A stretch of DNA of 64,000 nt from an uncultured Bacteroidales bacterium (GCA_944323845.1 CALUUA010000002.1:18444-82443); one strand, 5' to 3'. Counted from the stretch's first letter, positions 38,863 to 57,619 are shown. Translations and numbers: made by a program. The notes: generated from the letters alone by a model not told the origin.

Positions 38863-41826
38863 ATGAAAACAACATTGTTGATTCTTCTTGAACTTTTAAT
38901 CTGTGGATTGCCGGCAGCAGCCGCATCTCAGATCGAGGACAGGGAAGATGTCACAGTCAGCGGTGTCGTGTCTTCAGCAGAAGACGGACAGCCTCTGATC
39001 GGTGTCGTTGTCATGTCTTCAGCAGGGGGGGGCGTCAGCGCTTCCGATGACGGAAGCTATTCGCTTACGGTTCCTGCAGGGACAGTTCTCACATTTCATG
39101 CCATCAGCTACGAAACAGTCGAATACATCGTACCGTCAGGCTCTCCGGCCGTAACCTATGATGTAGTCATGACTTCAGACTCCCAGCTTCTGGAAGAAAC
39201 CGTGGTGGTGGCTTACGGCGTGAGAAAGAAAGGCACTATCACAGGTTCCGTATCCAGTGTCAAGTCGGAAAAGATAGAAAGCACACCGACTGCGGCCTTC
39301 GACCAGGCACTGCAGGGACAGGTCCCGGGACTGACCGTACTTTCTTCCACCGGAGAACCGAGCGCATCCGCCACGATGCTTATCCGCGGTACGAACTCCA
39401 TAAACTCCGGCACTTCGCCTCTTTACATTCTGGATGGAGCTGCCATCGAGGCTTCTGAATTCAACTCCATAAATCCTTCGGATATCGAGAGCATTTCAGT
39501 CCTCAAGGACGCATCGTCCACATCCATCTACGGAGCCCGTGCATCGAACGGCGTGATAGTCATCACCACCAAGCGCGGACGCATGGCAGACAAGCCGACC
39601 ATTTCATTCAGGGCACAGCTCGGAATCTCCGATGTCGCTCACGGCCAGTGGAATCTGATGAATACGGAAGAGCGTATAGCCTACGAGAAGGAAATCGGTC
39701 TGGATGCAGGTAAAGATTACGCCACGCTTTCCAAGATAGATGTAGACTGGCAGGACGTTGTCTACAACGACGCCGCCCTTCTCCAGAATTACGAGCTTTC
39801 AGTGTCAGGAGCTACCGAAAAGACAAACTACTATATCTCCGGCTCATATTACGATCAGGAAGGAATCGCCATGGGCTCGAACTTCAACCGTTATTCCATC
39901 AGGGCCAATGTAGAGCAGCGTGCAGCCAAATGGCTGACAGTCGGCACGAATACCATGCTCAACTATCAGGACATCGAGCAGGCGGACGAGGGACAGCCGT
40001 CCATCGTCACTCCTATTTCGGCAGCACAATTCATGCTTCCGTACTGGGATCCGTACAATGCCGACGGGTCGATAGCCATTACCGGAAGTTCCGATCCGAA
40101 GAAAAGCTGGAAAGGAGACGGAGTAAACCCTATCGAATGGCTGGACAACAATCCGCTTTCCTTTAAAAGATATAAGGTATTCTCCTCTATTTTCGCAGAG
40201 GCCAGACCTATAGAAGGACTCTCTATCCGCTCGCAGTTCACCGTGGACTACACCCACACGACCGGCTACGGAAAATCCTATCCTGATTTCGCGCCTAACC
40301 AGGAATCGGGACAGGCGATGAGAAGTTCTACCGACGGACTGGCACTGTCCGTGACCAATACGATAGGCTATCAGTTCGACATCAATCATGACCATTCGTT
40401 CAATTTCATGGTGGGACAGGAAGGCATCAATTATCATTACGAGGCCTTCAACGTATTGTCCGAAGGACAGAACAATCATTATTTGACGAATCTGACCACC
40501 GGTTCCCGCGTATCTTCATGGGGAGACACCACCGATAACGACTACGGTTTCCTCTCATTTTTCGCCAGAGCCGAATACAACTACGCGAACAAATACTATC
40601 TCGAACTTTCAGGACGTGCGGATGCATCCTCCCGGTTCGGAAAGGACGGCCGCTGGGCAGGCTTCGGGTCCGTCGGCCTCATGTGGAACATGCTGAACGA
40701 GGATTTCATGGCCTCATCACGCCACTGGCTGACTTTCGCTCAGGTATCTTTCAGCAGCGGAACAGCAGGAAACTCCACTATCCCGAACTATGAGCATCTG
40801 GCTCTGATCGGAAGCGCCGGAGACTATGTAGGACAGCCGGGACTCGCTCCGTCCACCCAGGGTAACGAAAACCTGAGCTGGGAAACCACATGGACCACGA
40901 ACCTCGGTCTGCACTTCGCATTCTGGAACAGGCTCAACGTGGATCTCGAACTTTACAACAAGTACACATACAACATGCTCATGCTTGTCCCGAAATCGTA
41001 TTCAGACAACGGCTTCGGCTCGAACTGGGACAATGTCGGAGCCATGGTAAACCGCGGAGCCGAGCTCAACCTTACCGGAACGGCTCTCCAGATAGGCGAT
41101 TTCATCTGGACGCTGAACGCCAATGTGTCATATAACTATAATATGATCACGGAACTCTATGGCGGCGTCACCGAATACGAACAGGCCAATACCAGCCAGA
41201 AACTCGTGGTAGGCCATGATGTCGGGGAGTTCTTCATAAACCGCTTCGCCGGAGTGAACCCGGCAAACGGCGATGCCCTCTGGTACACGAAGGACGGCGA
41301 AATCATCGACGAGCTCCGCGACGAGGACAGGGTGATGATAGGCAAAAGCAGCAATGCTCCGTGGACCGGCGGTTTCGGAACCACTTTCTCATGGAAAGGT
41401 CTGTCACTCTCCGCACAGTTCAGCTGGGTCGCCGACAGATGGATGATAAACAACGACAGGTATTATCAGGAATCGAACGGACGTTTCCAGACCTACAACC
41501 AGTCAGCCAAGCTGCTCGACAGGTGGAAAGAACCGGGGGACATTTCAGAGACGCCGAGACATGGCGAGTACATGGAATTCGATGACCGTCTCCTTGAAGA
41601 CGCATCGTTCCTCAGACTGAAGAATCTGATACTTTCATATCAGGTACCTTCCCCTGTAATCCGCAAGTCTGGCTTCATAGAGGGTCTGAGAGTGTATTTC
41701 CAGGCTCAGAACCTGCTGACTTTCACGAATTTCTCGGGTCTTGATCCGGAAGGTGTAAGCAACATATACATCGCACAGTATCCGATGTCGAGACAGTTCA
41801 CTTTCGGTATCGACCTGACATTCTAA
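38863..41826 (+). CDS. susC: SusC/RagA-family TonB-dependent outer-membrane transporter
   Basis: TonB box LEETVVVAYG, plug motifs (IRGTNS, PLYILDG, ISVLKDASSTSIYGARASNGVIVITTKRG), SRFG, C-terminal GIDLTF. Confidence 0.96.
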   Translation: MKTTLLILLELLICGLPAAAASQIEDREDVTVSGVVSSAEDGQPLIGVVVMSSAGGGVSASDDGSYSLTVPAGTVLTFHAISYETVEYIVPSGSPAVTYDVVMTSDSQLLEETVVVAYGVRKKGTITGSVSSVKSEKIESTPTAAFDQALQGQVPGLTVLSSTGEPSASATMLIRGTNSINSGTSPLYILDGAAIEASEFNSINPSDIESISVLKDASSTSIYGARASNGVIVITTKRGRMADKPTISFRAQLGISDVAHGQWNLMNTEERIAYEKEIGLDAGKDYATLSKIDVDWQDVVYNDAALLQNYELSVSGATEKTNYYISGSYYDQEGIAMGSNFNRYSIRANVEQRAAKWLTVGTNTMLNYQDIEQADEGQPSIVTPISAAQFMLPYWDPYNADGSIAITGSSDPKKSWKGDGVNPIEWLDNNPLSFKRYKVFSSIFAEARPIEGLSIRSQFTVDYTHTTGYGKSYPDFAPNQESGQAMRSSTDGLALSVTNTIGYQFDINHDHSFNFMVGQEGINYHYEAFNVLSEGQNNHYLTNLTTGSRVSSWGDTTDNDYGFLSFFARAEYNYANKYYLELSGRADASSRFGKDGRWAGFGSVGLMWNMLNEDFMASSRHWLTFAQVSFSSGTAGNSTIPNYEHLALIGSAGDYVGQPGLAPSTQGNENLSWETTWTTNLGLHFAFWNRLNVDLELYNKYTYNMLMLVPKSYSDNGFGSNWDNVGAMVNRGAELNLTGTALQIGDFIWTLNANVSYNYNMITELYGGVTEYEQANTSQKLVVGHDVGEFFINRFAGVNPANGDALWYTKDGEIIDELRDEDRVMIGKSSNAPWTGGFGTTFSWKGLSLSAQFSWVADRWMINNDRYYQESNGRFQTYNQSAKLLDRWKEPGDISETPRHGEYMEFDDRLLEDASFLRLKNLILSYQVPSPVIRKSGFIEGLRVYFQAQNLLTFTNFSGLDPEGVSNIYIAQYPMSRQFTFGIDLTF

Positions 41827-41840
41827 AAGGAGGAAAAAAC

Positions 41841-43409
41841 ATGATAAAGAATATATTGCATATCATAAAGATTGCGGCTGTTTCCGCTCTCATTGCAGGA
41901 ACGGCTGTTTCCTGCCTTGAGAAATACCCGGGTTCTTCCATTCCGGAAAAGGATGCGATGAAGACATTTTCGGATGCCGAACAGCATAATCTGGGTATAT
42001 ATGCCAGTCTGAAAAGCAGCGCCCTTTACAGCGGGAGTCTGACTCTCCTGCCTGACATACAGGCGGATCTGGTCATGGCCACCCTCACGAACGCGAACCC
42101 GTATGACGGTATCTGGAACTGGGACATCAGGCCGACCAACGAAAATATCGAAGCCGTTTACGGCTCCCTCTACGCAGTCATCGGAAACTGCAACTTCTTC
42201 CTTGAGAAGGTCGGGGACGTGAAGGCGACGCTTACCGACGAGGATCAGCTGGACATGCTCGAACATTACACTGCGGAAGCCCATGCCATCCGCGCACTTT
42301 GCTACTCTGAACTGATCAAATGTTTCTGCGAGGCGTACCCTGCCAGCGGCAATGACGCCGATGACGAAGCTGCAAAGTCTCTCAAAGGCGTAGTTCTGCG
42401 TACGAAATATTCAGAACCGGAGCCTGTCCGCAGAGCAAGCCTTTATGATTCATACCAGCTGGTACTGGATGACCTGCAGAAGGCCGAAGAGCTTTTCGAT
42501 GACGGGGACGATGATCCGTCAGAGAGCGAACTTGACGAATACAACAGCTATTATATCACGCCTGCGGCAGTATATGCCATCCGCGCGAGGGTAGCCCTTT
42601 ATATGCGTGACTGGGATGACGCGATCAAATATTCGACCTACGTCATCAACAACAAGGCATATGAACTGTGTACGAACGTAGTGGATCCTACTACCGGATA
42701 TTCCGAAATCGACAGCATCTGGGGCTTTGACACCGGCAGCGAAATCATCTGGAGAATCGGCTTCACCCCGACTTCATACGGCGGAGCTCTCGGCACAGTC
42801 TTCCTCAACCTGACGAGAGACTTCACCTACACATATCCTGACTATGTCCCTGCCGAATGGGTTCTGGGACTGTACAGTCAGAGCGATTACCGCTATCTTG
42901 CATACTTCGCGACTCCATCCAACAATCCGGTAGGGTTCTCTTATGAAATTCCTGTACCGTTGCTGGTAAAATATTGGGGTAACCAGACATTCATAAGCGG
43001 ATACCAGCTCTATCATGTCTGCATGCCGAAGCCTCTCAGGTTAGCGGAGCAGTACCTGATACGCGCCGAAGCCAACTATTGGAACGGAGATACCGGCAAG
43101 GCAACCACCGACCTGACTACGCTCAGTCAGAGCAGGCTGGCAGGCTCGGTCACTGTAAGCAGCGGTGATGCCGGACTGGAAACCATCTCGAACGAAAGGG
43201 TGAAGGAACTCTATATGGAGGGCTTCCGCCTGAATGACCTGAAACGCTGGCACAAAGGGTTCGAAAGAACTCCGAACAGCTATTCCCAGGTAGAAGGATA
43301 CGATCTGGAAGTCTCTGCCGACGACCCTCTTTTCGTATGGCCAATCCCGCAGCACGAAATCGAGGCCCCGGGCTCTGACATAGAAGGAAATGACAGCAAC
43401 AACAGGTAA
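41841..43409 (+). CDS. susD: SusD/RagB-family lipoprotein
   Basis: Lipobox AVSC; YAVIGNCN, EAHAIRALCY, AIRARVALY, LRLAEQYLIRAEA, ERVKELYMEGFRLNDLKRW, WPIPQHEI. Confidence 0.93.
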   Translation: MIKNILHIIKIAAVSALIAGTAVSCLEKYPGSSIPEKDAMKTFSDAEQHNLGIYASLKSSALYSGSLTLLPDIQADLVMATLTNANPYDGIWNWDIRPTNENIEAVYGSLYAVIGNCNFFLEKVGDVKATLTDEDQLDMLEHYTAEAHAIRALCYSELIKCFCEAYPASGNDADDEAAKSLKGVVLRTKYSEPEPVRRASLYDSYQLVLDDLQKAEELFDDGDDDPSESELDEYNSYYITPAAVYAIRARVALYMRDWDDAIKYSTYVINNKAYELCTNVVDPTTGYSEIDSIWGFDTGSEIIWRIGFTPTSYGGALGTVFLNLTRDFTYTYPDYVPAEWVLGLYSQSDYRYLAYFATPSNNPVGFSYEIPVPLLVKYWGNQTFISGYQLYHVCMPKPLRLAEQYLIRAEANYWNGDTGKATTDLTTLSQSRLAGSVTVSSGDAGLETISNERVKELYMEGFRLNDLKRWHKGFERTPNSYSQVEGYDLEVSADDPLFVWPIPQHEIEAPGSDIEGNDSNNR

Positions 43410-43421
43410 ACATCACAGGCT

Positions 43422-44348
43422 ATGAGAAGAACAATATTACTTTCAGCAATACTTCTTGGAGCTATATTTACCGCCTGCCAGGAAGAGAACATAAAGACCT
43501 TCGACAAGGAATACATCATGTTCGAGGATACCCTCAATGTGGTGCCTGTCCTTGACGAGGAAGACTATACTATAAAGATTCCCGTAATATCCTCCGTCAA
43601 GTGCGACTATGAACGGACCATTGCCGTAGAGGTCCTCGACATCCCCGGCACCATGGACAGCGTGGCTGTGGAAGGACGGGACTATACGATCGAATCCAAT
43701 ACTATCAGAATCCCTGCCGGGAAATACAGGACCGACATCGTCATCAGACCGAACTATGAGATGTTCGGAGACAATGACACCCTGTCCTTCGAGCTCAAAC
43801 TCGTAATGCCTGAACAACTCTGCTGGGACATGTACGGAGACCGCACCAGAGTGTCGATGTATAAGGTATGTCCGTTCGACATCAACTCTTTCAAGGGCTG
43901 GTGCGTGGTCACATCCATGTTCCTCTACAGCTATCCGGGTGTGGATGACTCGAATGCTTCATACCAGAGGCTCATCAAGACATCTCTGGATCCGGCAAAT
44001 GAAAACACCGTCATTCTGCACGACTGGCTGTTCGACGGATACGACGTGAAAATAGAACTCGACCCTTCGGATCCTGAAAATCCGACGGTGACCATGCCGG
44101 AAGACCAGCTTATAAGCGACGAAGAGTCTGTCTTCGGCCAGATGAACGGAGACAACAGGATACTCGGCATGTCGAGTCCGGCATATGTATCCTATTACAA
44201 CAATTGCCAGAAATTCGTATCCCTCTGGATGAGGGCCTATGTCTATGATATCAAGACTCTGGTCGGCTATGTAGGCGATTTCTATAATGTCATGGAATGG
44301 GTATCCGACGAGGAGGCCGAAAGGCTCCAGAGCGAAAACGGCTGGTAA
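43422..44348 (+). CDS. Surface lipoprotein (DUF4984-like), third gene of the SusCD operon
   Basis: Lipobox FTAC-QEE; beta-rich; domain name from recalled synteny only. Confidence 0.7.
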   Translation: MRRTILLSAILLGAIFTACQEENIKTFDKEYIMFEDTLNVVPVLDEEDYTIKIPVISSVKCDYERTIAVEVLDIPGTMDSVAVEGRDYTIESNTIRIPAGKYRTDIVIRPNYEMFGDNDTLSFELKLVMPEQLCWDMYGDRTRVSMYKVCPFDINSFKGWCVVTSMFLYSYPGVDDSNASYQRLIKTSLDPANENTVILHDWLFDGYDVKIELDPSDPENPTVTMPEDQLISDEESVFGQMNGDNRILGMSSPAYVSYYNNCQKFVSLWMRAYVYDIKTLVGYVGDFYNVMEWVSDEEAERLQSENGW

Positions 44349-44375
44349 GATTCATCCCGCTAAAAAGTTAATGCA

Positions 44376-46823
44376 ATGAAAAAGATATTTACACGACTTC
44401 TGCCGGGAATAGTGCTTTCAGCAGCGTTGTTCGCGGCTTGTGAGAAAGAGGAAAAGGAACCGGATGCAGCTCCGAGCTTCCCGGACAGCCTTACTGAAGA
44501 CGTGCTTCTGTATCCGGAAGCCGAGGCTTCAGTTTCAGATGAAGACAATATGGAATCTGAATACGACATAGTATTCACTCCGAACAATAACTGGACGATT
44601 TCCCTGTCCTCCGGCGCATCGAGATATTTCGAACTCAGGTACGGAGCCACTGAAGCGCAGTCGGTACGCGGCCCGGCTTCGGACAGTCCGCAGACTGTAA
44701 CCGTAGTATGTATCGCCGCAGACAGAGATCTGGAAGAAGCCCACAAGGCGGATATATCCATGACAATGGGCGGTAAAACGAGGGAACTGGGCACAGTCAT
44801 GATGCCGGCCAAGGAAATCAGTTTCAAGGCATACGCCGTATCAATAAAGACCGACGGCGAATCCCAGACATTCGAAGAGGCGGAGAGCGGCAGCGGGCTT
44901 ACATACAAGTATTCATCGGAACCGGCAGATGAAAATACGGTTCTGACCATGATCTGGAACAATGTCACAGCTGTCTACGAAAGCTATCTGCTGATAGACA
45001 GCAATACCGGCTTCAGGCAGGATCTCGAAAATTCCGGATCAGAGCTCGAACTGCTCAACTATACTGAAAACGGCAACCTTACCGAACTCCGGATTTCATG
45101 CCGGACGACATCGCTCAATGAGAGGAAAAGCGGATTCGTACTTTTGGTGGAAGAAAACGGCGAAAAAGTGCCATATCCTTTCACGGTAAAAATTCCTGCT
45201 TTCGAAGCCGACTTCTTCGTATATCCGGTGGAGAAGGAAGAAAACGGCGACTATGTCATCAGCGATGACGAGACTTTCACCATGTCCTACAGTACCGATT
45301 TCTTCATGCCGGGGGATAATATCCAGCTGGAATATGTGTCGGAAAACATGCAGTTCGAGACATATATACTCGTCGAGGGAAATTATGACTATGTGGATAT
45401 CTCCCAGTCTGACGAGGACGGCGGCAAGCCTGCGATTCTGGACGGTCTCGTTCCTGAATGGCTCAGCGTGAAGGCTCTCGGATCAGAGGGGAACAAGAAG
45501 GAATTCTGCCTGTCAGTAATTCCTGAAAACATGCTTCTCGACGGAGCTGAAGAAACACTCGTGTTCCAGGATGGCACCAGCCCTGAGATATCGAACAGAT
45601 ACAACATAGTGCTCCCGGGATGCCGCGATTTCTTCGAAATCATATCGAACGAAGAGACAGCCACATTCGACTATCAGGGCAAGTACTACAATACGATGCA
45701 GGGGCAATACCTTGAAGGCGGAGCAAACATCGCAGTCACCAGCGCAAACGACCTTAAGGTCTATGCATTTTCTGTAGACGAGAACGGGAACTATGTCGCG
45801 AATCCCGACTGGCTCCATGCCTCGTGGACATGGGATAATGCCAATCTCGGCAAACTGCAGCAGAATCCTGTAAACATCACCGCAGACGAAAACGAAGGCG
45901 GAATCAGGGAAGGCCTGGTAATGGCTCTTCCGGCCACTCTTGCAGGAGAGATTTCGGGAGCGTCCGACCTCGTGTCAGGTGATGCTGTCAAGCCTGAATA
46001 TGAGGCATATGTAGTTACCCTCGTAATGCAGAATGCTAATCCTTCTGCCCCGGGCATTGTAATCAATAACGAATCTGCATGGAATAGCGAAAGCGGGCTT
46101 GGCGCAAGTTTCGGTCTTCTGGTTGATGATGAGATGGCTGGAATGGCAGAGTACGCTTATCTCGTGACATACACTTGGAACGGCTGGGCAGACGGTACAG
46201 TAAGCAGTTTCGGACAGGATCTTACTCTGAATGTAAATCTTGATTTTGTGCCTGAGAAGACCGTGATATATGAAGTAGTGGACGGGACACCGTCTCCTGT
46301 GGAAAATCCTTCAAAATACTGGATCGGATTTACGCAGTCGAGAACCGGCGAGACTTATTATATATCCATGACACCTAAATCGCTGGAGGACGTGAAAGCC
46401 ACTACACTGTATTTCGCTCTTCTCAGTGAAACGGACGAGATTGTGGCTGTCATAAAGTTCGTCTATGATTTGGGTTCAGCTCTTGACTTGAAGCTGGTGG
46501 AATCCGGAGACTTCACCTTGAGGGCAGCTGCTGAAGATGACAAGATTCCTGAAGGTCAGAACAGGTCGATCTGCTGGATTCTTGAATATACCGGAGAGGC
46601 TGACAGCGCTACTGCAGTGATATCAGGAATAGAGGAAGAAATCAATGAATGGATTAACACTTCTCCAACTGTCGACGTCAAAGATTTGGGCAATGGCAGC
46701 ATTCAAGTGTCTCTTGACATGTCGGAACCATGGGAAGAGAACGGTTTCGCCCAGTTGATGGACAAGCAAGGACAGTATTTCCTGTATCTCATAATTAAGG
46801 CACCATCTGCATCCCAGGAATAA
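44376..46823 (+). CDS. Large acidic multi-domain surface lipoprotein (DUF5003/BACON-like)
   Basis: Lipobox FAAC-EKEEKE; BACON-like W motifs (NNNWTISL, PEWLSV, PDWLHA); very D/E-rich. Confidence 0.7.
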   Translation: MKKIFTRLLPGIVLSAALFAACEKEEKEPDAAPSFPDSLTEDVLLYPEAEASVSDEDNMESEYDIVFTPNNNWTISLSSGASRYFELRYGATEAQSVRGPASDSPQTVTVVCIAADRDLEEAHKADISMTMGGKTRELGTVMMPAKEISFKAYAVSIKTDGESQTFEEAESGSGLTYKYSSEPADENTVLTMIWNNVTAVYESYLLIDSNTGFRQDLENSGSELELLNYTENGNLTELRISCRTTSLNERKSGFVLLVEENGEKVPYPFTVKIPAFEADFFVYPVEKEENGDYVISDDETFTMSYSTDFFMPGDNIQLEYVSENMQFETYILVEGNYDYVDISQSDEDGGKPAILDGLVPEWLSVKALGSEGNKKEFCLSVIPENMLLDGAEETLVFQDGTSPEISNRYNIVLPGCRDFFEIISNEETATFDYQGKYYNTMQGQYLEGGANIAVTSANDLKVYAFSVDENGNYVANPDWLHASWTWDNANLGKLQQNPVNITADENEGGIREGLVMALPATLAGEISGASDLVSGDAVKPEYEAYVVTLVMQNANPSAPGIVINNESAWNSESGLGASFGLLVDDEMAGMAEYAYLVTYTWNGWADGTVSSFGQDLTLNVNLDFVPEKTVIYEVVDGTPSPVENPSKYWIGFTQSRTGETYYISMTPKSLEDVKATTLYFALLSETDEIVAVIKFVYDLGSALDLKLVESGDFTLRAAAEDDKIPEGQNRSICWILEYTGEADSATAVISGIEEEINEWINTSPTVDVKDLGNGSIQVSLDMSEPWEENGFAQLMDKQGQYFLYLIIKAPSASQE

Positions 46824-46855
46824 TCAAATAAAAGGCATATCAAGAAATTACGAAT

Positions 46856-49567: not shown

Positions 49568-49581
49568 AAGGAGGAAAAGAC

Positions 49582-51447: not shown

Positions 51448-51462
51448 AAGGAGAGAGAAGAC

Positions 51463-53556
51463 ATGAAAATGAAATTTATAAATATGATATTGGCCGCAGG
51501 CATCCTGACAGTCGCTTCTTCCTGTGTGGAAGAAAACTTGGACATACAGACTCCGCCGGTTCAGGAAAACGACGGGATTCAGGACAAGATGTCTGGTCAG
51601 GTCATCCTGAAATTCGATGATTCGCTTTCGGACCTTCTGGACCGGATAGACCTGACAGGTGGTCCGGCCACCCGCTCCGGAGTGAATACGGTGGATGAAA
51701 TCCTCGAAATCATCGGAGGATACAAGCTGGAAAGGGTCTTCCCTGTGAACAAGGCTACAGAGGATCAGTCCAGAGAAGCAGGACTTCACCTGTGGTATGT
51801 AGTGTACTTCGATGAAAGTCAGAATGTGGATGATGTCGTGAAAAAGCTTTCGGTTCTCGGAGAAGTGCAGTCTGCCGCTCCGGTAAGGACCATAAAGAAA
51901 GCCTATGACGACAAGGTTATTCCATACCGCCCGTCCCGTCGGACAATGACAAAGGCGGACGGCACCGAAAATGAAGAAGAGAAGAACCTGATAATGCAGT
52001 GGAATCTGATTAACAACGGCTACGTCTCTGATTATGTCATCAAGGACGGAGTGGATTACCCTTCTGACTATCCTTTCGGCAAGGATGCGGAAGAAAAATT
52101 CATTGCCGGTTCAGACGTGAACTGCAAATCGGCCTGGGAAAGGTGCACCGGTGACGAATCCATCATAGTCGCCGTCCTCGATGAAGGTATCAGGCTGGAT
52201 CACCCTGATCTGAAGGATAACATCTGGACAAATGAGGACGAAGTCGCCGGTTCGGAAGACAAAGACGAGAACGGGTATGCCGGAGACGTACACGGATACA
52301 ATTTCATAGACGGTTCAGGTACGATTAAATGGGATTCCTATGGCGACACTGGACACGGCACACACGTTTCAGGAGTGATCGCGGCAGTGAACAACAACGG
52401 CATAGGCATACATTCCATCGCAGGCGGAGATTATTCAGCACACAAGCCGGGTGTGAAACTCATGTCATGCCAGGTATTCTCCGGAACTGCGGCATCGAAT
52501 ACAGTCCGTCTGGCCCGTGCCATAAAATATGCGGCCGACAACGGGGCTGTCATCCTTCAGTGCAGCTTCGGCTACAATTCAGGTTCTGCCAACCCGTATC
52601 TGTACGGGGAATCCGGCTTCAAGACAGAAGAAGAGTGGGAAACATACTGTCCTCTCGAGAAGACAGCCCTCGACTACTTCATACACAATGCCGGCTCTGA
52701 CAACGGCCCTATCAAGGGAGGAATACCTATATTCGCTTCCGGAAACGAGTATGCCCCGCAGGCCGGTTTCCCGGGTGCTTCAGAAGGCTGCATTTCGGTA
52801 GCTTCAATCGCGGGTGACTATACTCCTTCCACTTTCACGAACTACGGCGAAGGTACGAAGATAGCGGCTCCGGGAGGAGATCAGGACTACTACTTCGACT
52901 ATCAGCAGGGAGATGACGTCACCGAAAGAGGAGCGGTAGGCTGCATCCTGTCCACATTGCCGGATCATGTCAGCGAAGGCTCTGGCTACGGATACATGGA
53001 AGGTACATCCATGGCCTGCCCTCATGTCTCCGGAGTGGCTGCCCTCGGGCTGTCATATGCGGCTCAGCAGCACAGGCATTTCACGGCAGAAGAGTTCCGC
53101 GAACTCCTGTTCGATTCATGCACGGCCATAGACAGCTACATGACCGGAACCAAGTTCTACTATCAGTGGCAGGTGGACGCCTCGAGCCTTATCCATCCGG
53201 ACAGGCTGATTCTCAGCAAATACAGGAACAATATGGGAGCAGGGCTTGTCAATGCAGGTAAGCTCCTCGATGCCATAGACAACGGGGCCGGAGAACCGAT
53301 GAAGTTCCCGAACATCTATGTAAAGGCAGGAAGCAAGGTAGCGGCGAATCCGTCGGCTTATCTTGACGGGACCTCATTCACCATCGAGGTTTCCGACCAG
53401 AGCATAGCTTCCGTGACAAAGAATGAACAGAACGGGATATTCACTTTCGAAGGTCTGAAAAGCGGCTTCACTTCAGCTACGATATCCTGGGGCGGCAATT
53501 CGCAGTCATTCGTCATCACGGTAAGCACGAGCGATTCGGCTTCCGGCTGGCTTTAA
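51463..53556 (+). CDS. Subtilase (S8) serine protease lipoprotein with prodomain and C-terminal Ig-like domain
   Basis: Lipobox ASSC-VEE; intact triad VAVLDEG (Asp), HGTHVSG (His), GTSMACPHVSG (Ser); oxyanion FASGNE. Confidence 0.93.
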   Translation: MKMKFINMILAAGILTVASSCVEENLDIQTPPVQENDGIQDKMSGQVILKFDDSLSDLLDRIDLTGGPATRSGVNTVDEILEIIGGYKLERVFPVNKATEDQSREAGLHLWYVVYFDESQNVDDVVKKLSVLGEVQSAAPVRTIKKAYDDKVIPYRPSRRTMTKADGTENEEEKNLIMQWNLINNGYVSDYVIKDGVDYPSDYPFGKDAEEKFIAGSDVNCKSAWERCTGDESIIVAVLDEGIRLDHPDLKDNIWTNEDEVAGSEDKDENGYAGDVHGYNFIDGSGTIKWDSYGDTGHGTHVSGVIAAVNNNGIGIHSIAGGDYSAHKPGVKLMSCQVFSGTAASNTVRLARAIKYAADNGAVILQCSFGYNSGSANPYLYGESGFKTEEEWETYCPLEKTALDYFIHNAGSDNGPIKGGIPIFASGNEYAPQAGFPGASEGCISVASIAGDYTPSTFTNYGEGTKIAAPGGDQDYYFDYQQGDDVTERGAVGCILSTLPDHVSEGSGYGYMEGTSMACPHVSGVAALGLSYAAQQHRHFTAEEFRELLFDSCTAIDSYMTGTKFYYQWQVDASSLIHPDRLILSKYRNNMGAGLVNAGKLLDAIDNGAGEPMKFPNIYVKAGSKVAANPSAYLDGTSFTIEVSDQSIASVTKNEQNGIFTFEGLKSGFTSATISWGGNSQSFVITVSTSDSASGWL

Positions 53557-53576
53557 CAGGCAGTGCTCCGGAAAGG

Positions 53577-54359
53577 ATGAAACGCGTTACGCTCATATCC
53601 GCGGCTCTTGGGCTTTTCCTCCCGGGCATCCTCCATGCCCAGTCGGAAAGGGAGCGTCTGATAGACAGCCTGCTCCACCCGGAAATTTCCGAGGCCGGAG
53701 CCGCGATGAGTTTTGAGCGTACAGTAATAGACGCCGGAGAAATGCCGGAAGATACTGTCCCTCCTGAATATATGTTCCGCTGGGAAAATACCGGAAAGGA
53801 GCCGGTCACAGTGCTGAAAGTATCCACTACATGCAGCTGCGCCGTTCCGTCCTTCGAAAAAAAGGCGGTAATGCCGGGAGAGAAAAGTTCTTTGAAGATA
53901 ACATACCATCCCAAGGGGCACCCCGGGAATTTCGACAGGAAGATATTCTTGTACACCGACAAGTCCGGCTCCAAGCCGGCGGCAGTGCTTGGATTGAAAG
54001 GAAAGGTGATCCCGAAACTGAAACCGCTTTGGGCATTTTCCTATCAGATGGGAGAACTCTACCTGAAAAGGAAGACGGTGAAGTTCGATGCCGGATCCAA
54101 AGGGGAAGAAAGAATCTTATGCCTGAATGCAGGAGGATCTCCGGTGTCATGGGGAGTGGAAACAAACCTGCTCCCGCCTTACATGAAAGTCCGGTTCGAA
54201 CCGGAAGTCATTCCGGCCGGCGGATACGGGGATATCGTGATATCCTATGACCCGGAGGGAGCGCCTGCGAGGATGCTGAAAAACATTCCCGTCATCCTGA
54301 CCGGAATCGATGTCCCGCCTTCACAGCGTACCGTGACTGTTATTGTCGAAGAGGATTGA
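53577..54359 (+). CDS. DUF1573-like secreted Ig-fold protein
   Basis: Signal peptide without lipobox; FRWENTGKEPVTVLKVSTTCSCAVP...PGEKSSLKITYHPKG...FDRKI. Confidence 0.8.
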   Translation: MKRVTLISAALGLFLPGILHAQSERERLIDSLLHPEISEAGAAMSFERTVIDAGEMPEDTVPPEYMFRWENTGKEPVTVLKVSTTCSCAVPSFEKKAVMPGEKSSLKITYHPKGHPGNFDRKIFLYTDKSGSKPAAVLGLKGKVIPKLKPLWAFSYQMGELYLKRKTVKFDAGSKGEERILCLNAGGSPVSWGVETNLLPPYMKVRFEPEVIPAGGYGDIVISYDPEGAPARMLKNIPVILTGIDVPPSQRTVTVIVEED

Positions 54360-54437
54360 AACATTGTCCCGAAGCAGGGCGAGGGACACACACATATCAG
54401 AAATAATTTTTTAGAGAAAATTTAGATAAACCGAGAA

Positions 54438-54911
54438 ATGAAGAATTTACTGAAGACCGTTCTGGCAGTCGCAGCCATTGCCTTTATGGCATCCTGCGAC
54501 AAGAATGCATTGGACGAAGAGACTTATCTCGAAGTCACTCCTTTCAACATCGAGGGTATATGGGAGCTGACGGAACTGAACGGCGTCCCGATGGGCGAAG
54601 GCGTGTTCGCTTATATGGAATTTGTACGTCAGGACAGGAAATTCACAGGATACTATAACTTCGACAGTTTCGCCACTGTCGTAGAGACCGGGAAATATGA
54701 CATAGATATCGAAGACAATTCGATCGGAGGATATTATGACCATTCATTCAAGGAGCAGTGGAAACACAGCTACATCATTTCGGAGCTGACTTCGGAAAGG
54801 ATGGTGTGGACCGCGGAGGACGATGAGAATGAAGTGCGCGTCTACGTGAGAATCGACAGTCTTCCGGACGGCATAGCCCCTGATTCCGAAGATGACGGTC
54901 AGGATGAATAA
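54438..54911 (+). CDS. Lipocalin-like domain lipoprotein
   Basis: Lipobox MASC-DKN; IEGIWEL (GxW) and ISELTSERMVW motifs; 157 aa. Confidence 0.75.
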   Translation: MKNLLKTVLAVAAIAFMASCDKNALDEETYLEVTPFNIEGIWELTELNGVPMGEGVFAYMEFVRQDRKFTGYYNFDSFATVVETGKYDIDIEDNSIGGYYDHSFKEQWKHSYIISELTSERMVWTAEDDENEVRVYVRIDSLPDGIAPDSEDDGQDE

Positions 54912-54948
54912 ACCCGAACTTAAAGTAACACCTATTAATAACTACAAA

Positions 54949-57558
54949 ATGAACAAGACAAATTTATTCCGCCACACGGCTGCAGCAGCCATGGCGGTGC
55001 TGACTGCGGGAATGTTCGCGTTCTCGTCATGCGACACGCTGGACGAGACGGGATTGCAGGACTCTATCGACGATCTGACCGATAGGGTAGAATCTCTCGA
55101 AGAAAAAGTAGCTACTCTGGAAGAACAGGCAGCTACAGTTTCCGGGCTTCTCGAAAAAGGGAAAATCATCAGCGGCATAGCAGAGAATGCCGACGGGACC
55201 GGCTACATCATCTCATATGTGGGCGAAGAGACTACAGATGAAATAATCGTATCAACAGGTCAAACGGAAATCACCATGATTCAGGAAGGTGAAGACTGGT
55301 ACTGGGCTAAAATAGGTGAAAACGGAGAACCTGTACATCTGCTCGGCGAGGAGAACAAGATAGCCGTAGAGCCGGTGATTCCTCAATTCAAGATAGAAGA
55401 GAACAGTCTCATGGTGTCAGTCGACGGGACTGAATGGACAAATACAGGCATAACCCTCGGCGAGGCAGGTTTGAGCCTTATCTCTGACGTAAATGTAGAG
55501 GATGGCTATGTGGAGTTCATATTCAACGGAAATGCAGGCTCATTCAAGGTGAAGAGGGTAACGGAGTTCAAATGCGAATTCCTCAGCGGAAAGACCATTT
55601 TCGAGTATGAGGAGATGAAGAACCTGTCGATGGATGTCAGCGGATATGTGAAATATGACATCGACTATCCTGAAGGCTGGACGGTGGAATTCGACGGGAC
55701 CAAGATGAGCGTAACAGCTCCTGCCGCGCCGAGTGAGTGGAATAAGACACCGTTCGATGAATCCGGACTGATCAAGATATGGCTCTATGACAACAAGGGC
55801 GATGTGGTGTTCGACAAGGTAATGGTACAGATCGGCGGGACACAGATAATCACCCTTTCTGCTACGATGACAGAAGGAGTTGTCAATGTCGTAGCTGAAA
55901 CTCCGTATGCTTCATCATTCTACCTTGGAGTAATGAAAGCTGATGAGTTTACGGCAGAAGCTGCAGCGGAGGCTGCGAATGCGCCAGACGCCACCATATA
56001 TGAAACCAAACAGATAGCAACGGAAGATGGTTGGCAGATCATACCATTCTCTGCACCGTTTGCAGACTTCTATGCTGATGAACCTGAAGTAGGTGAATCA
56101 TATGTAATCTGGGCTTTCAATTATGGCGGGTCTGTAAGTCCTGAAGACATCATCACCATCGTCTACGACTATGGTCTGAATGTGGACGCAGCTTTCTCCG
56201 ACGTCACATTCAAGGATGCTACGGTGACTGTTACTCCGGGCGAGGGCACAAGCTACTTCTATGGAATAACTACTACAGACGACTACTATGCGTCTTCTAT
56301 CCTCTACATGGTGAATGCCGGAATGTATTCCGCTACCAGCGAAGCTGTCAATTCTACGATGTCCGCTCTCAGCGAATCCGACCAGCCTAATGTCCGCTTC
56401 AACATCACGCCCGGTGCATCCTACACTCTGTGGTATGTCATCAAGACTTCTGCCGGCTCTTACACCGAGGCTGACATGAAGACAGTCGATGTGACATTGA
56501 ACGCACTTACTGACGACGGTACGGCAGAAGTAACTTTCGGCGAACCTGTTGTCACATACAATTCCATCGAATTGCCGTTTACTCGTCCGGAGAACACATG
56601 GAGGGTATATGCGCAGTATTTCACTGAGGCCGAATACACCAGCGACTACGAGAGTTCAGATGACGCAGTCAAGGAATTCCTGCTCAATTCATGGCCGTTC
56701 AATACCAATTATCCTACGACATCCGATGTCTACGGTAACTTCAACCTCAGCCCGAACACTAAAGGCTATGTATTCGTAGTGGTCATAGACAATGACGGCA
56801 AGATAGGCCCGCTGCAGAAAAAGGAAGTGACTACTACCGATGTCCCTCGTGATGCCTCTATCAGTGTTGCGCTCGACGGGACAGTAGCAGCCACGGCTTC
56901 TTCCGCTTCAGTGAAACTTTCCGTGACAGGAACTCCGACCACCGTAATCTATTATTTAGCCACGAAAACGGAATTCGATGACCATTGGTCTTTCAAGGGC
57001 GATAAAGAAATCGTAAAATCAGATATGGCCCTGAACCCTAACAACTACAATTACACGAGGGTAGCATACTCGACCTTGACTGACAACACTCTGGAAATCA
57101 CAGGTCTGTCATTCAGTCAGGATTACATTCTTATCGGCTCCGTGGCTTCAGGCGATGAAAGCACAGGATATACTCTCTCGGAAGACTATTTCGAGACTGA
57201 ATTCAGTACTCCTGATCCTACAATCATAGGAACAGAAGATCCCGGATACGCCGATATGCTTCCTGGAATAAGCGAGCCATCCTATGAAACAAGTTATGGC
57301 AGCACTTATGGGAAAGTCACTGTAACTCCTGCAGAAGGCACAGCTACATGGTACTACTATGCCACGACAACGGCTCTCGATGAGTCTAACACGGCTGCGC
57401 TCGTATCTCAGATTACATCTAACGGTAACTCAAGCACCGAAGAATTCGAAATCAACAGGTATATGTACACCACATTGTATGTCTACATAACCTGGACTGA
57501 CGCAGAAGGAAACTATTATGCTCCTGTTAAGGTAGAAATCCCGATGCCGGCCGAATAG
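54949..57558 (+). CDS. Large surface lipoprotein with N-terminal coiled coil (DUF4988-like) and repeated beta-sandwich modules
   Basis: ATG 54949; lipobox FSSC-DTLDE; IDDLTDRVESLEEKVATLE coiled coil; DWYWA motif; repeated VTVTPxEG...YYY-like modules. Confidence 0.75.
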   Translation: MNKTNLFRHTAAAAMAVLTAGMFAFSSCDTLDETGLQDSIDDLTDRVESLEEKVATLEEQAATVSGLLEKGKIISGIAENADGTGYIISYVGEETTDEIIVSTGQTEITMIQEGEDWYWAKIGENGEPVHLLGEENKIAVEPVIPQFKIEENSLMVSVDGTEWTNTGITLGEAGLSLISDVNVEDGYVEFIFNGNAGSFKVKRVTEFKCEFLSGKTIFEYEEMKNLSMDVSGYVKYDIDYPEGWTVEFDGTKMSVTAPAAPSEWNKTPFDESGLIKIWLYDNKGDVVFDKVMVQIGGTQIITLSATMTEGVVNVVAETPYASSFYLGVMKADEFTAEAAAEAANAPDATIYETKQIATEDGWQIIPFSAPFADFYADEPEVGESYVIWAFNYGGSVSPEDIITIVYDYGLNVDAAFSDVTFKDATVTVTPGEGTSYFYGITTTDDYYASSILYMVNAGMYSATSEAVNSTMSALSESDQPNVRFNITPGASYTLWYVIKTSAGSYTEADMKTVDVTLNALTDDGTAEVTFGEPVVTYNSIELPFTRPENTWRVYAQYFTEAEYTSDYESSDDAVKEFLLNSWPFNTNYPTTSDVYGNFNLSPNTKGYVFVVVIDNDGKIGPLQKKEVTTTDVPRDASISVALDGTVAATASSASVKLSVTGTPTTVIYYLATKTEFDDHWSFKGDKEIVKSDMALNPNNYNYTRVAYSTLTDNTLEITGLSFSQDYILIGSVASGDESTGYTLSEDYFETEFSTPDPTIIGTEDPGYADMLPGISEPSYETSYGSTYGKVTVTPAEGTATWYYYATTTALDESNTAALVSQITSNGNSSTEEFEINRYMYTTLYVYITWTDAEGNYYAPVKVEIPMPAE

Positions 57559-57569
57559 GCATTGCATGG

Positions 57570-57619
57570 AATAAAAGAAAAAGGGGACGTGCGAAAGCAC
57601 ATCCCCTTTTTCTTTTATT
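57570..57619. terminator. Bidirectional intrinsic terminator ending the susC operon
   Basis: aataaaagaaaaagggga-cgtgcgaaagcaca-tcccctttttcttttatt: 18-bp perfect outer stem, GAAA loop, A/T tracts on both sides. Confidence 0.85.

What the first reader, a model, noticed from the sequence alone, without database searches (positions are those of the whole stretch)
38863..57558. CAZyme-free SusC/SusD operon with two LRR lipoproteins, a surface subtilase and a lipocalin: candidate protein-capture and utilisation system
Seen: ten co-oriented genes separated by short gaps, between one sigma70 promoter (38831) and one strong terminator (57570). Eight products carry a lipobox, most followed by acidic residues. 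The S8 protease has an intact Asp/His/Ser triad. No glycoside hydrolase, lyase or regulator is recognisable. Established: SusCD pairs import oligomers made by co-encoded surface enzymes, LRRs bind proteins, and acidic residues after the lipidated Cys direct surface export in Bacteroidota. From memory, a similar gene order exists in B. thetaiotaomicron (around BT0206-BT0213, with an LRR structure of BT_0210), and I know of no assigned function. Inference: a PUL-like machine in which LRRs capture a specific host, dietary or microbial protein, the subtilase cleaves it at the surface and SusCD imports the peptides; the lipocalin hints at a lipidated or hydrophobic ligand.
Basis: partly seen in the sequence, partly recalled or inferred. 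Interest (0 to 1): 0.8.

Follow-up and report, generated by a model that had tools for sequence, protein, structure and literature searches.

The report
RagA-type SusCD operon with subtilase
This is a real ten-gene outer-membrane nutrient-uptake operon of a small-genome gut Bacteroidales bacterium, one more copy of a widespread but never characterised locus type (BT0206-14 in Bacteroides thetaiotaomicron); its transporter groups with a known peptide importer and its only enzyme is a protease, so it probably harvests protein rather than sugars.

Summary
Ten co-oriented genes (38863-57558) lie between a conserved Bacteroides -7 promoter box (38831-38838) and a strong terminator (57577-57612). 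Eight products have lipoboxes followed by acidic residues. The S8 triad is intact and invariant in 73/73 orthologues. Pfam, NCBIfam and two structure models found no CAZyme, and no regulator gene is adjacent.

New evidence:
- Genes 1-9 are colinear in 51 of 53 sufficiently long related loci. At least 551 species genomes encode the LRR protein. B. thetaiotaomicron PUL BT0206-14 has the same annotated gene content and no assigned substrate.
- The SusC sits with full support in a clade with P. gingivalis RagA, a peptide importer, apart from 17 of its own genome's other SusC genes that were sampled.
- Of the seven next-closest SusC loci, three carry peptidases (five subtilases, one C10). No glycoside hydrolase family was matched among the genes scanned.
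- SusC is conserved almost like neighbouring housekeeping genes. Genes 4 and 10 are variable arrays of Ig-like domains.

Protein or peptide uptake is the best reading (about 0.5). It remains untested, and protease-less variants exist. The lipid hint from the lipocalin has no support. This is a new member of a known but uncharacterised locus family.

The parts
38831..38838 (+). Bacteroides-type -7 promoter box TACCTTTG, 32 nt upstream of the susC start, implying a short leader
   Evidence: Read directly from the sequence. The same box sits at -29 to -33 in 10 of 14 aligned orthologous upstream regions. The E. coli-type sigma-70 scan does not list it.
38863..41826 (+). Gene 1: SusC/RagA-family TonB-dependent transporter (987 aa) with signal peptide, CarboxypepD_reg-like N-terminal extension, plug and barrel. 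No STN signalling domain was detected.
   Evidence: TIGR04056 scores 753 bits; Plug and TonB_dep_Rec_b-barrel also match. The best solved structure is RagA 6SLI at 542 bits, against 358 bits for the next SusC. It falls in a RagA-containing clade with 100/99 support. Identity to orthologues is 63-90%.
41841..43409 (+). Gene 2: SusD/RagB-family lid lipoprotein (522 aa)
   Evidence: SusD_RagB and SusD-like_3 match. The best PDB matches are RagB 5CX8/6SM3 at 65 bits, which is weak. The lipobox VSC|LEKYPG is conserved.
43422..44348 (+). Gene 3: DUF4984 surface lipoprotein (308 aa), in the position of a surface binding protein
   Evidence: PF16372 matches at E 2.5e-44. There is no PDB relative. A profile of its orthologues also finds the third gene of 3 of 7 related RagA-clade loci. 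The positional equivalent in one related locus is Calx-beta-like.
44376..46823 (+). Gene 4: hypervariable lipoprotein (815 aa) made of a chain of Ig-like/BACON-like beta-sandwich domains, with no catalytic fold
   Evidence: It has no Pfam or NCBIfam hit of its own. The AF2 model has mean pLDDT 85 and is all-beta. Foldseek finds hydin/ASH arrays, cadherins, alpha-2-macroglobulin and adhesins. 17 of 35 homologues match BACON. Orthologues are only 22-40% identical and often align only in part.
46856..49567 (+). Gene 5: LRR lipoprotein (903 aa) with two DUF4458 beta-sandwich domains, an LRR_10 cap and an LRR solenoid
   Evidence: Pfam matches. PDB 4ECN matches at E 1.9e-144 over residues 32-901, and 4ECO at 1.3e-110. 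898 homologous clusters were found and at least 551 species genomes encode a relative.
49582..51447 (+). Gene 6: BACON + LRR lipoprotein (621 aa)
   Evidence: BACON scores 27.9 bits and LRR_4 is weak. PDB hits are weak LRR matches only. It is present next to gene 5 in 78 of 80 loci.
51463..53556 (+). Gene 7: lipoprotein subtilase (697 aa) with Peptidase_S8_N, the S8 catalytic domain and a C-terminal extension. It is the only S8 gene in the genome.
   Evidence: PF00082 matches at 6.2e-38 and PF16361 at 6.1e-28. D240, H301, N428 and S516 are invariant in 73/73 sequences. PDB relatives include deseasin MCP-01, SUB1 and mirolase. It is the single PF00082 match in the own genome.
53577..54359 (+). 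Gene 8: DUF1573 / HYDIN-VesB-like Ig protein (260 aa) with a signal peptidase I-type signal; not a lipoprotein
   Evidence: PF07610 matches at 6.7e-27. The N-terminus has no lipobox Cys. Only 9 of 64 orthologues give a lipobox-like pattern.
54438..54911 (+). Gene 9: small lipoprotein (157 aa) with a borderline lipocalin-like match and an acidic tail
   Evidence: PF13648 scores 23.2 bits against a cut-off of 22.4. It has no PDB relative. It is conserved at this position in 66 of 80 loci.
54949..57558 (+). Gene 10: clade-specific accessory lipoprotein (869 aa from Met20; the ORF opens at 54892) with a DUF4988 coiled-coil N-terminus followed by FN3/Ig-like repeats
   Evidence: PF16378 matches at 3.1e-9. 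The NCBIfam BT3328-family lyase model matches only over profile positions 8-294 of 840, at 69.6 bits against a cut-off of 1100. The AF2 model has pLDDT 62 and Foldseek finds FN3/Ig arrays only. Only 21 homologues exist. Among the loci listed, only L005, L006, L013, L019 and L024 have a 760-960 aa + strand gene directly after gene 9.
57577..57612 (+). Intrinsic terminator hairpin followed by a U run
   Evidence: Fold energy is -23.8 kcal/mol, z = -5.41. Inverted repeat I2 is 96% complementary.

Best explanation
WHAT IT IS. A single sigma-A-driven operon encodes a RagAB-type, TonB-dependent outer-membrane import machine for proteinaceous material.

PROPOSED MECHANISM, STEP BY STEP.
1. SusC (gene 1) and its SusD lid (gene 2) form the pedal-bin transporter. 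This is shown by family membership.
2. Six or seven surface-exported lipoproteins assemble around the transporter, as in glycan utilisomes. They are DUF4984, a variable Ig/BACON array, two LRR proteins, the subtilase, the small lipocalin-like protein and, in this clade, an FN3/Ig array. This is inferred from lipoboxes with acidic export signals and from strict gene linkage.
3. The two LRR proteins would act as the binding modules for a protein ligand (inferred).
4. The lipoprotein subtilase would cut the captured protein into oligopeptides at the surface. This is inferred from an intact, invariant catalytic set.
5. The RagA-clade SusCD would import the peptides. This is inferred from phylogeny and from the recurrent peptidase partners of its relatives.
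6. The DUF1573 protein has an ordinary signal peptide and probably acts in the periplasm or as a soluble accessory. Its role is unknown.
7. The operon has no dedicated regulator.

WHAT IS NOT KNOWN. The natural substrate is unknown.
For: OPERON ANATOMY.

NO CAZYME.
- Pfam and NCBIfam give no CAZyme for any product.
- Gene 4 was modelled at pLDDT 85 and is an Ig-like array.
- Gene 10 is FN3/Ig-like.

THE TRANSPORTER IS RagA-LIKE.
- The best solved relative of SusC is RagA at 542 bits, against 358 for the next SusC.
- The RagA barrel fragment hits gene 1 at 337 bits, against 174 for the next of the genome's more than twenty other SusC genes.
- An ML tree puts all LRR-locus SusCs (monophyletic, 100/100), seven further relatives and RagA in one clade (100/99). 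That clade excludes the 17 own-genome paralogues sampled.

RELATIVES CARRY PEPTIDASES. SusCs 35-44% identical, from genomes without the LRR genes, have these neighbours:
- SusD, a DUF4984-like gene and three S8 subtilases (G748);
- two S8 subtilases with T9SS tails (G764);
- a C10 cysteine peptidase (G672);
- no glycoside hydrolase family was matched among the downstream genes scanned.

THE PROTEASE LOOKS FUNCTIONAL. The S8 catalytic residues are invariant in 73/73 sequences, and it is the genome's only subtilase.

LINKAGE AND CONSERVATION.
- Genes 1-3 and 5-9 are colinear in 51 of 53 eligible loci.
- SusC at 53% identity or more occurs only in genomes that also hold DUF4458.
- In L006 and L024, SusC is 86-90% identical. 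Neighbouring L-serine dehydratase is 92-93% and SufB (found in L006 only) 93%. LRR1 is 57-63% and gene 4 is 26-39%.

SURFACE EXPORT. Lipoboxes with acidic residues are conserved in orthologues.

FROM ESTABLISHED KNOWLEDGE.
- RagAB imports oligopeptides (Madej et al. 2020; cited from memory, and described as implicated in protein uptake in the abstract of PMC11817032).
- The genera that hold most copies, Alistipes and other Rikenellaceae, are known amino-acid fermenters (memory).
Against: - No ligand, expression or activity data exist for any member.
- S8-less variants keep SusCD, DUF4984 and the LRR pair (two copies in G483, one in G660). Proteolysis by a co-encoded enzyme is therefore not universal in the family.
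- The SusD match to RagB is weak (65 bits).
- BACON domains were first proposed as glycan or mucin binders.
- In B. thetaiotaomicron the orthologous PUL was induced together with CPS2 only when the Sus-like proteins of BT3983-88 were expressed (PMC2709373). This suggests a link to glycoprotein processing or envelope state.
The gene 10 model has low confidence.
- The tree's background consists only of paralogues from one genome plus relatives picked by similarity.
Confidence: 0.5

Rival explanations
1. Glycoprotein or glycan locus with outsourced enzymes. The system targets a glycoprotein such as mucin or an N-glycosylated dietary or host protein. The subtilase only opens up the polypeptide. 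The imported cargo is a glycan or glycopeptide that is processed by enzymes encoded elsewhere.
For: - B. thetaiotaomicron BT0206-14 was up-regulated in the anti-sigma BT3992 mutant. That induction needed the BT3983-88 Sus-like proteins. From memory, BT3983-88 is the high-mannose N-glycan PUL.
- BACON domains occur in gene 6 and in homologues of gene 4.
- Many PULs lack some of their enzymes.
Against: - This genome has no GH18 at all, so a BT3987-type partner is absent here.
- No CAZyme lies in the locus.
- No glycoside hydrolase family was matched among the genes scanned downstream of SusC/SusD in five of the seven related RagA-clade loci; three of the seven carry peptidases. Only the ~300-aa third gene of 3 of the 7 matched the DUF4984 profile.
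- The SusC lies in the RagA clade, away from the genome's other SusCs.
Confidence: 0.2
2. Non-nutritional surface module. The LRR, Ig-array and subtilase lipoproteins serve adhesion, host or microbe protein recognition, immune evasion or surface and vesicle remodelling. The SusCD acts as an anchor or as a sensor or importer of a signal.
For: - Bacterial LRR surface proteins are often adhesins; BspA and internalins are examples (memory).
- Gene 4 is hypervariable between genera (22-40% identity).
- Gene 10 splits into 16 or more clusters of 84-95% identity, whereas gene 5 of the same population collapses into one 97% cluster. This pattern is typical of exposed antigens.
- The B. thetaiotaomicron locus is co-regulated with capsule locus CPS2.
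- An earlier follow-up reported Alistipes lineages that kept the accessory genes but lost SusCD. One locus here, L055, also lacks the cognate SusCD.
Against: - SusC and SusD are the most conserved genes of the locus and are linked to the rest in 51 of 53 loci. That is hard to explain if transport were marginal.
- The concave-face positions of the LRRs are not hypervariable (mean entropy 1.32 against 1.58 bits for the rest). This argues against diversifying recognition.
Confidence: 0.15
3. Dedicated importer of one specific small protein or peptide (a signal, a bacteriocin-like molecule or a micronutrient carrier), analogous to ButCD taking up Bacteroides ubiquitin homologues. The LRRs would be high-affinity receptors for it.
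For: - ButCD shows that peptidase-linked SusCDs can take up a folded small protein (PMC11467351).
- SusC conservation is high and the LRR concave positions are conserved. Both fit a single conserved ligand.
- The locus has no substrate-sensing regulator.
Against: - ButC (8YPT/8YPU) is a distant match at 226 bits, against 542 for RagA.
- A surface endoprotease is not needed to import an intact ligand.
- Six or seven accessory lipoproteins are a large investment for one ligand.
Confidence: 0.1

Closest known systems
Bacteroides thetaiotaomicron PUL BT0206-BT0214 (Martens et al. 2009, PMC2709373), with structural-genomics structures PDB 4ECN and 4ECO of the LRR protein
   Same: - The annotated order is the same: SusC, SusD, DUF4984, unknown, DUF4458-LRR, BACON(-LRR), S8, DUF1573 and a small lipoprotein.
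- Gene 5 aligns end to end with 4ECN.
- That locus also has no linked regulator.
- A complete Bacteroidaceae-like genome (G243) shows genes 1-3 and 5-9 in the same order, with 25-57% identity.
   Different: - The window is from a 2.23-Mb uncultured Bacteroidales genome whose nearest relatives are Cryptobacteroides- and Rikenellaceae-type MAGs.
- It carries an extra tenth gene (DUF4988 plus FN3/Ig array) found only in its closest relatives.
- Gene 4 is too diverged to align with the Bacteroides counterpart.
- Neither locus has an assigned function.
Porphyromonas gingivalis RagAB oligopeptide importer (PDB 6SLI, 6SM3)
   Same: - Both are a SusC/SusD-type pedal-bin transporter.
- RagA is the best solved relative of gene 1.
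- RagA nests in the same well-supported clade.
- RagB is the best, though weak, solved relative of gene 2.
- Both lack CAZyme partners.
   Different: - RagAB is a two-gene unit that relies on unlinked gingipains (memory).
- It has no LRR, DUF4984, subtilase, DUF1573 or lipocalin-like partners.
- tblastn identity to gene 1 is 41% over the N-terminal/plug fragment and 35% over the barrel fragment.
Glycan utilisomes of Bacteroides (levan and dextran SusC2D2 with a surface binding protein and an endo-enzyme; PMC7618045, PMC13450635, seen as titles and abstracts)
   Same: The operon logic is the same: SusC, SusD, then surface-exposed binding lipoproteins and one surface endo-acting enzyme, all co-transcribed.
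   Different: - The enzyme here is a serine protease, not a glycoside hydrolase.
- The presumed binding proteins are LRR solenoids rather than carbohydrate-binding modules.
- There is no hybrid two-component or ECF/anti-sigma regulator.
ButCD of Bacteroides fragilis (PMC11467351)
   Same: It is a SusCD pair in a locus without polysaccharide enzymes, next to a peptidase. Its authors regard it as a protein-related nutrient system, and it takes up a small protein.
   Different: - Its partner is a zinc metalloprotease, and it has no LRR proteins.
- ButC is only a distant relative at 226 bits.
Treponema denticola dentilisin (PrtP lipoprotein subtilase complex)
   Same: - Both are surface-anchored, lipidated subtilases.
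- The NCBIfam PrtP model matches residues 421-692 of gene 7 (E 1.8e-20, below the cut-off).
   Different: - It comes from a different phylum.
- Its partners (PrcA, PrcB) differ.
- It has no linked TonB-dependent transporter (memory).

Membership tests
Sus-like system / predicted PUL (SusC-SusD pair with co-transcribed surface proteins) | SusC/RagA-family TonB-dependent transporter | tested here: met
   TIGR04056 scores 753 bits against a cut-off of 368. The signature TIGR04057 scores 64 bits.
Sus-like system / predicted PUL (SusC-SusD pair with co-transcribed surface proteins) | Adjacent SusD-family lipoprotein | tested here: met
   PF07980 and PF14322 match above their cut-offs. The gap to susC is 14 nt and a lipobox is present.
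Sus-like system / predicted PUL (SusC-SusD pair with co-transcribed surface proteins) | Carbohydrate-active enzyme(s) in the locus | tested here: not met
   No GH, PL, CE or CBM domain appears in Pfam or NCBIfam. The gene 4 and gene 10 models are Ig/FN3 arrays. dbCAN was not available and gene 3 was not modelled.
Sus-like system / predicted PUL (SusC-SusD pair with co-transcribed surface proteins) | Linked substrate-sensing regulator (HTCS, ECF/anti-sigma, SusR, GntR and similar) | tested here: not met
   The flanks encode L-serine dehydratase, SufB, a PD40 protein and SecDF. No STN domain was detected in SusC. The same is reported for BT0206-14.
RagAB-type peptide importer | SusC groups with RagA rather than with glycan SusCs | tested here: met
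   RagA scores 542 bits against 358 for the next solved SusC. The best-hit relationship within the own genome is reciprocal. The clade has 100/99 support in the ML tree. The outgroup sampling was limited.
RagAB-type peptide importer | SusD partner is RagB-like | tested here: inconclusive
   RagB is the top PDB hit, but at only 65.6 bits, close to other SusD structures such as 3KEZ at 61 bits.
RagAB-type peptide importer | Binds and imports oligopeptides | not testable with these tools
   This needs purified complex with peptidomics or cryo-EM, or uptake assays.
BT0206-14-type locus family | Colinear SusC-SusD-DUF4984-(variable)-DUF4458/LRR-BACON/LRR-S8-DUF1573-small lipoprotein | tested here: met
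   51 of 53 eligible loci are colinear. G243 shows the same order. The B. thetaiotaomicron annotation agrees. The B. thetaiotaomicron control genome matches DUF4984 and DUF4458.
Subtilase (MEROPS S8) | Asp-His-Ser triad in S8 order plus the oxyanion Asn | tested here: met
   D240, H301, N428 and S516 are invariant in 73/73 sequences. PF00082 scores 131 bits.
Subtilase (MEROPS S8) | Proteolytic activity | not testable with these tools
   This needs an enzyme assay with a Ser516Ala control.
Surface-exported Bacteroidota lipoproteins (lipoprotein export signal) | Lipobox Cys followed within a few residues by acidic residues | tested here: met
   Eight of ten products have it. It is conserved in orthologues of genes 2, 3, 5, 6, 7 and 9. 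Actual surface exposure was not tested.
Lipocalin-like (PF13648) for gene 9 | Significant match to the family profile or fold | tested here: inconclusive
   The score is 23.2 bits against a cut-off of 22.4, E 1.4e-4. There is no PDB relative and no structure model.
BT3328-family hyaluronic acid endo-lyase (NF058554) for gene 10 | Full-length match that includes the catalytic part | tested here: not met
   The score is 69.6 bits against a cut-off of 1100, and only profile positions 8-294 of 840 (the DUF4988 end) match. The model shows FN3/Ig arrays only, at low confidence.

The most novel reading that the evidence does not exclude
RagA-clade SusCD transporters, together with a DUF4984-like lipoprotein and a Peptidase_S8_N-type subtilase, define a distinct and widespread class of protein utilisation loci in gut Bacteroidales. 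The subtilase may be lipid-anchored or T9SS-anchored. In the BT0206-14 branch, which includes this operon, a pair of LRR lipoproteins has been recruited as protein-capturing counterparts of the surface glycan-binding proteins. The result would be a utilisome for proteins instead of polysaccharides.
Probability: 0.4. Interest if true: 0.75.

Novelty: new member of a known kind. Interest (0 to 1): 0.55.

Why it matters
Sus-like systems are the paradigm for how gut Bacteroidota feed, and almost all characterised ones take up glycans. Only RagAB, and indirectly ButCD, point to peptides or proteins.

This locus type is present in at least 551 species-level genomes, above all in Alistipes and other Rikenellaceae and their relatives, and also in B. 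thetaiotaomicron. It has crystal structures for one component but no known function.

If it is a protein-harvesting utilisome, it would explain how abundant gut amino-acid fermenters obtain peptides. It would give LRR proteins a defined nutritional role in bacteria. It would also identify a surface protease that may matter for host or dietary protein turnover. The hypothesis can be tested directly in a genetically tractable laboratory strain.

Tried and rejected
- HIDDEN CAZYME IN GENES 4 AND 10: rejected. Gene 4 was modelled at pLDDT 85 and gives Ig-like/BACON arrays. Gene 10 was modelled at pLDDT 62 and gives FN3/Ig arrays. The lyase-family hit of gene 10 covers only the non-catalytic N-terminus.
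- IDENTITY WITH ButCD: rejected. ButCD has a different locus with a ZnMc peptidase, and ButC is a distant match.
- RIBOSWITCH OR KNOWN RNA ELEMENT IN THE LEADER: none found. Rfam found only the downstream tRNA.
- LARGE INVERTED REPEATS FLANKING THE OPERON, to explain its inverted orientation: none found.
- DIVERSIFYING SELECTION ON THE LRR CONCAVE FACE: not seen. Mean entropy is 1.32 against 1.58 bits, p = 0.08, and only 8 repeats were caught by the pattern.
- CONSERVED GENOMIC NEIGHBOURHOOD, for example with L-serine dehydratase: the flanks are shared only with the closest relatives, and there in the opposite orientation.
- LITERATURE. They found no functional assignment. Only PMC2709373 and an iron-stimulon table (PMC10434189) mention the B. 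thetaiotaomicron genes.
- KNOWN ERROR. The per-gene identity line printed for g7 is a script slip that reused the g6 alignment. It is not used.

Full report
OBSERVATION

The region 38863-57558 holds ten + strand ORFs with gaps of 12-78 nt. Gene 10 most likely starts at Met20 (nt 54949), 37 nt after gene 9.

The generic sigma-70 scan lists nothing on the + strand at 38831. However, the Bacteroides -7 box TACCTTTG lies at 38831-38838, 32 nt before the susC ATG. It is conserved at -29 to -33 in 10 of 14 aligned orthologous upstream regions.

A 36-nt hairpin at 57577-57612 folds at -23.8 kcal/mol (z = -5.4) and is followed by a U run.

Eight products (genes 2-7, 9 and 10) have a lipobox Cys followed by acidic residues. 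SusC and the DUF1573 protein have plain signal peptides. This pattern holds across 61-77 orthologues per gene.

The flanks are housekeeping genes: L-serine dehydratase and SufB on one side, a PD40 protein and SecDF on the other. No regulator gene is adjacent.

GENE CONTENT

1. SusC: TIGR04056 at 753 bits, with a CarboxypepD_reg-like N-terminal extension, plug and barrel.
2. SusD.
3. DUF4984.
4. An 815-aa protein with no family match.
5. Two DUF4458 domains, an LRR_10 cap and LRRs. It is end-to-end homologous to PDB 4ECN (E 1.9e-144) and to 4ECO.
6. BACON plus LRR.
7. Peptidase_S8_N plus Peptidase_S8.
8. DUF1573 / HYDIN-VesB-like Ig.
9. A 157-aa lipoprotein with a borderline Lipocalin_4 match (23.2 bits against a cut-off of 22.4).
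10. A DUF4988 N-terminus followed by 560 unassigned residues.

The subtilase residues D240, H301, N428 and S516 are present and invariant in 73/73 aligned sequences. Its PDB relatives are ordinary secreted subtilases such as deseasin, SUB1 and mirolase. It is the only S8 gene in the 2.23-Mb genome.

SEARCH FOR HIDDEN ENZYMES

- Gene 4 has 134 relatives among 1.84 billion cluster representatives. With 35 of them aligned, AlphaFold gave a confident all-beta model with mean pLDDT 85. Its Foldseek matches are arrays of Ig-like domains: hydin/ASH, cadherins, alpha-2-macroglobulin and adhesins. 17 of the 35 homologues match Pfam BACON.
- Gene 10 has only 21 homologues. Its model is weak (pLDDT 62) and shows a coiled coil followed by FN3/Ig-like sandwiches.
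- The gene 10 NCBIfam hit to the BT3328 lyase family covers only profile positions 8-294 of 840, at 69.6 bits against a cut-off of 1100. It therefore covers only the N-terminal DUF4988 part and stops well short of full length.

No catalytic fold other than the protease was found.

CONSERVATION AND DISTRIBUTION

- The LRR protein has 898 homologous clusters.
- At least 551 GTDB species genomes encode a relative. The best 80 are Alistipes, Rikenellaceae, Cryptobacteroides and unnamed Bacteroidales MAGs.
- Among loci with enough flank, 51 of 53 have genes 1-3 and 5-9 in the same order and strand.
- A complete 4.87-Mb Bacteroidaceae-like genome (G243) has the same nine genes.
- The literature lists B. 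thetaiotaomicron PUL BT0206-14, with SusD, DUF4984, BACON, S8 and DUF1573 in that order.
- In even samples, DUF4458 is found in 2 of 401 genomes of the phylum and in 10 of 401 genomes (7 of 237 genera) of the order. The family is therefore rich in species but restricted to a few Bacteroidales lineages.
- Variants without the protease module exist: two copies in G483 and one in G660, each with a third LRR gene.

Conservation is very uneven within the locus.
- SusC is 63-90% identical, SusD 50-75%, LRR1 42-66%, and gene 4 only 22-40% and often only partly alignable.
- In L006 and L024, SusC (86-90%) approaches the neighbouring L-serine dehydratase (92-93%) and, in L006, SufB (93%).
- Gene 10 is confined to the nearest relatives. 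It splits into many 84-95% clusters, whereas gene 5 of the same population collapses into one 97% cluster.

WHAT KIND OF TRANSPORTER IT IS

- The best solved relative of SusC is P. gingivalis RagA at 542 bits, against 358 for the next SusC and 226 for ButC.
- RagA fragments copied from that alignment hit gene 1 best among the more than twenty SusC genes of the genome: 337 bits against 174 for the barrel.
- Gene 1's best paralogue in its own genome is only about 31% identical.
- In 401 genomes of the order, SusCs at 53% identity or more occur only where DUF4458 is present. A second tier lies at 35-44%.
- I fetched seven second-tier loci.
  - G748 has SusC-SusD, a DUF4984-like gene, a PorV-like gene and three S8 subtilases.
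  - G764 has SusC-SusD and two S8 subtilases with T9SS tails.
  - G672 has SusC-SusD, a Calx-beta lipoprotein and a C10 peptidase.
  - Two more (G643, G523) have only a DUF4984-like gene after SusD; G031 has a ~300-aa unknown and a phospholipase A1.
  - No glycoside hydrolase family was matched among the downstream genes scanned in six of the seven loci; G526 (L091) was not scanned.
- An ML tree (IQ-TREE, LG+C20) places the LRR-locus SusCs (monophyletic, 100/100), all seven second-tier SusCs and RagA in one clade (100/99). The 17 own-genome paralogues sampled fall outside it.

INTERPRETATION

The operon is a Sus-like import system whose transporter belongs to the RagA lineage. Its only enzyme is a surface-type subtilase, and its relatives are repeatedly coupled to peptidases.

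The most economical mechanism is capture of proteinaceous material at the surface, cleavage by the subtilase, and TonB-dependent import of oligopeptides by SusCD.

Assigning the capture role to the LRR pair is inference. The concave-face positions of the LRRs are not hypervariable. That fits a conserved ligand or a conserved partner, but the test is weak.

Several points argue against a simple protein-feeding picture.
- Protease-less variants exist.
- The SusD-RagB similarity is weak.
- In B. thetaiotaomicron the locus was co-induced with CPS2 in a way that needed the BT3983-88 Sus-like proteins.

This genome has no GH18, so a fixed partnership with a BT3987-type endoglycosidase is not general.

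I put protein or peptide uptake at about 0.5. The rivals are a glycoprotein locus with outsourced enzymes (0.2), a non-nutritional surface module (0.15) and a dedicated importer of one small protein (0.1).

COMPARISON WITH WHAT IS KNOWN

The locus type is already catalogued as PUL BT0206-14, and one component has crystal structures. No function is assigned in the searchable literature.

This window is therefore a new member of a known but uncharacterised family, with one clade-specific extra gene. It works like a utilisome and like RagAB. Membership of the RagA clade was tested and met. Peptide transport itself cannot be tested with these tools.

Earlier notes of this scan describe the same locus type in other genomes, including a transporter-less and a protease-less variant. 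I reproduced the protease-less variant and the RagA relationship independently. The peptidase linkage of the wider clade and the structural exclusion of hidden enzymes in genes 4 and 10 are the checks I ran here.

LIMITS

- No multimer modelling was possible.
- DUF4984 was not modelled.
- The gene 10 model has low confidence.
- The tree has a narrow outgroup.
- That 4ECN is BT_0210 and that RagAB imports peptides are taken from memory and from abstracts, not from tool output.

Noticed in passing
window 57612-57643 and 57717-57748; tRNA at 57725-57814 (-): A tRNA-Ser(GCU) gene lies directly downstream of the operon. A 32-nt partial copy of its 3' end (88% identical) lies 105 nt away, just after the operon terminator (D5). 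This looks like the scar of an old integration or recombination event at the tRNA.
   Followed up: partly
window 35814-59858 compared with loci L006, L024, L013, L015, L019: In the closest relatives the PD40 gene lies upstream of the operon and L-serine dehydratase (plus SufB in L006) downstream, on the same strand as the operon. In the window both flanks are on the opposite strand. The whole 19-kb operon therefore appears inverted in place relative to its neighbours. No long flanking inverted repeats were found.
   Followed up: partly
window 41824-41847, 49565-49588, about 51445-51465: Nearly identical stop-plus-Shine-Dalgarno-like junctions (TAAAAGGAGGAAAAnACATG) precede genes 2 and 6, and a similar one precedes gene 7 (D9). 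This is unusual for Bacteroidota, which rarely use strong SD sequences (from memory). Similar motifs recur before genes 2 and 7 in the closest relatives, but not generally.
   Followed up: partly
window about 38766-38785: A motif TAAC(N4-6)TGATT about 100 nt upstream of susC is conserved in most aligned orthologous upstream regions, although the surrounding sequence is not. It is a candidate operator for the unknown regulator of this regulator-less locus.
   Followed up: no
window 54949-57558 (gene 10): Gene 10 splits into 16 or more separate 90%-identity clusters at 84-95% identity. Gene 5 of the same population falls into one 97% cluster with 143 members. This is strain-level hypervariability typical of an exposed antigen or phage receptor.
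   Followed up: partly
own genome G000 (2.23 Mb, 31 contigs): Despite its small size the genome carries more than twenty SusC paralogues. It has a single S8 subtilase, the one in this operon, and no GH18.
   Followed up: partly
L086 and L087 (G483:C8, two places about 40 kb apart); L088 (G660): One genome carries two divergently oriented, protease-less copies of the locus. Each has SusC, SusD, DUF4984, LRR, BACON-LRR and a third LRR gene. The family has therefore duplicated and lost or never gained the S8/DUF1573/lipocalin module in some lineages.
   Followed up: partly
L089 (G748) and L092 (G764): Related RagA-clade SusCD loci carry two or three tandem subtilases of the same Peptidase_S8_N type, but with T9SS C-terminal sorting domains, and a PorV-like gene in the same cluster. 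This is the same functional pairing with a different anchoring route.
   Followed up: partly
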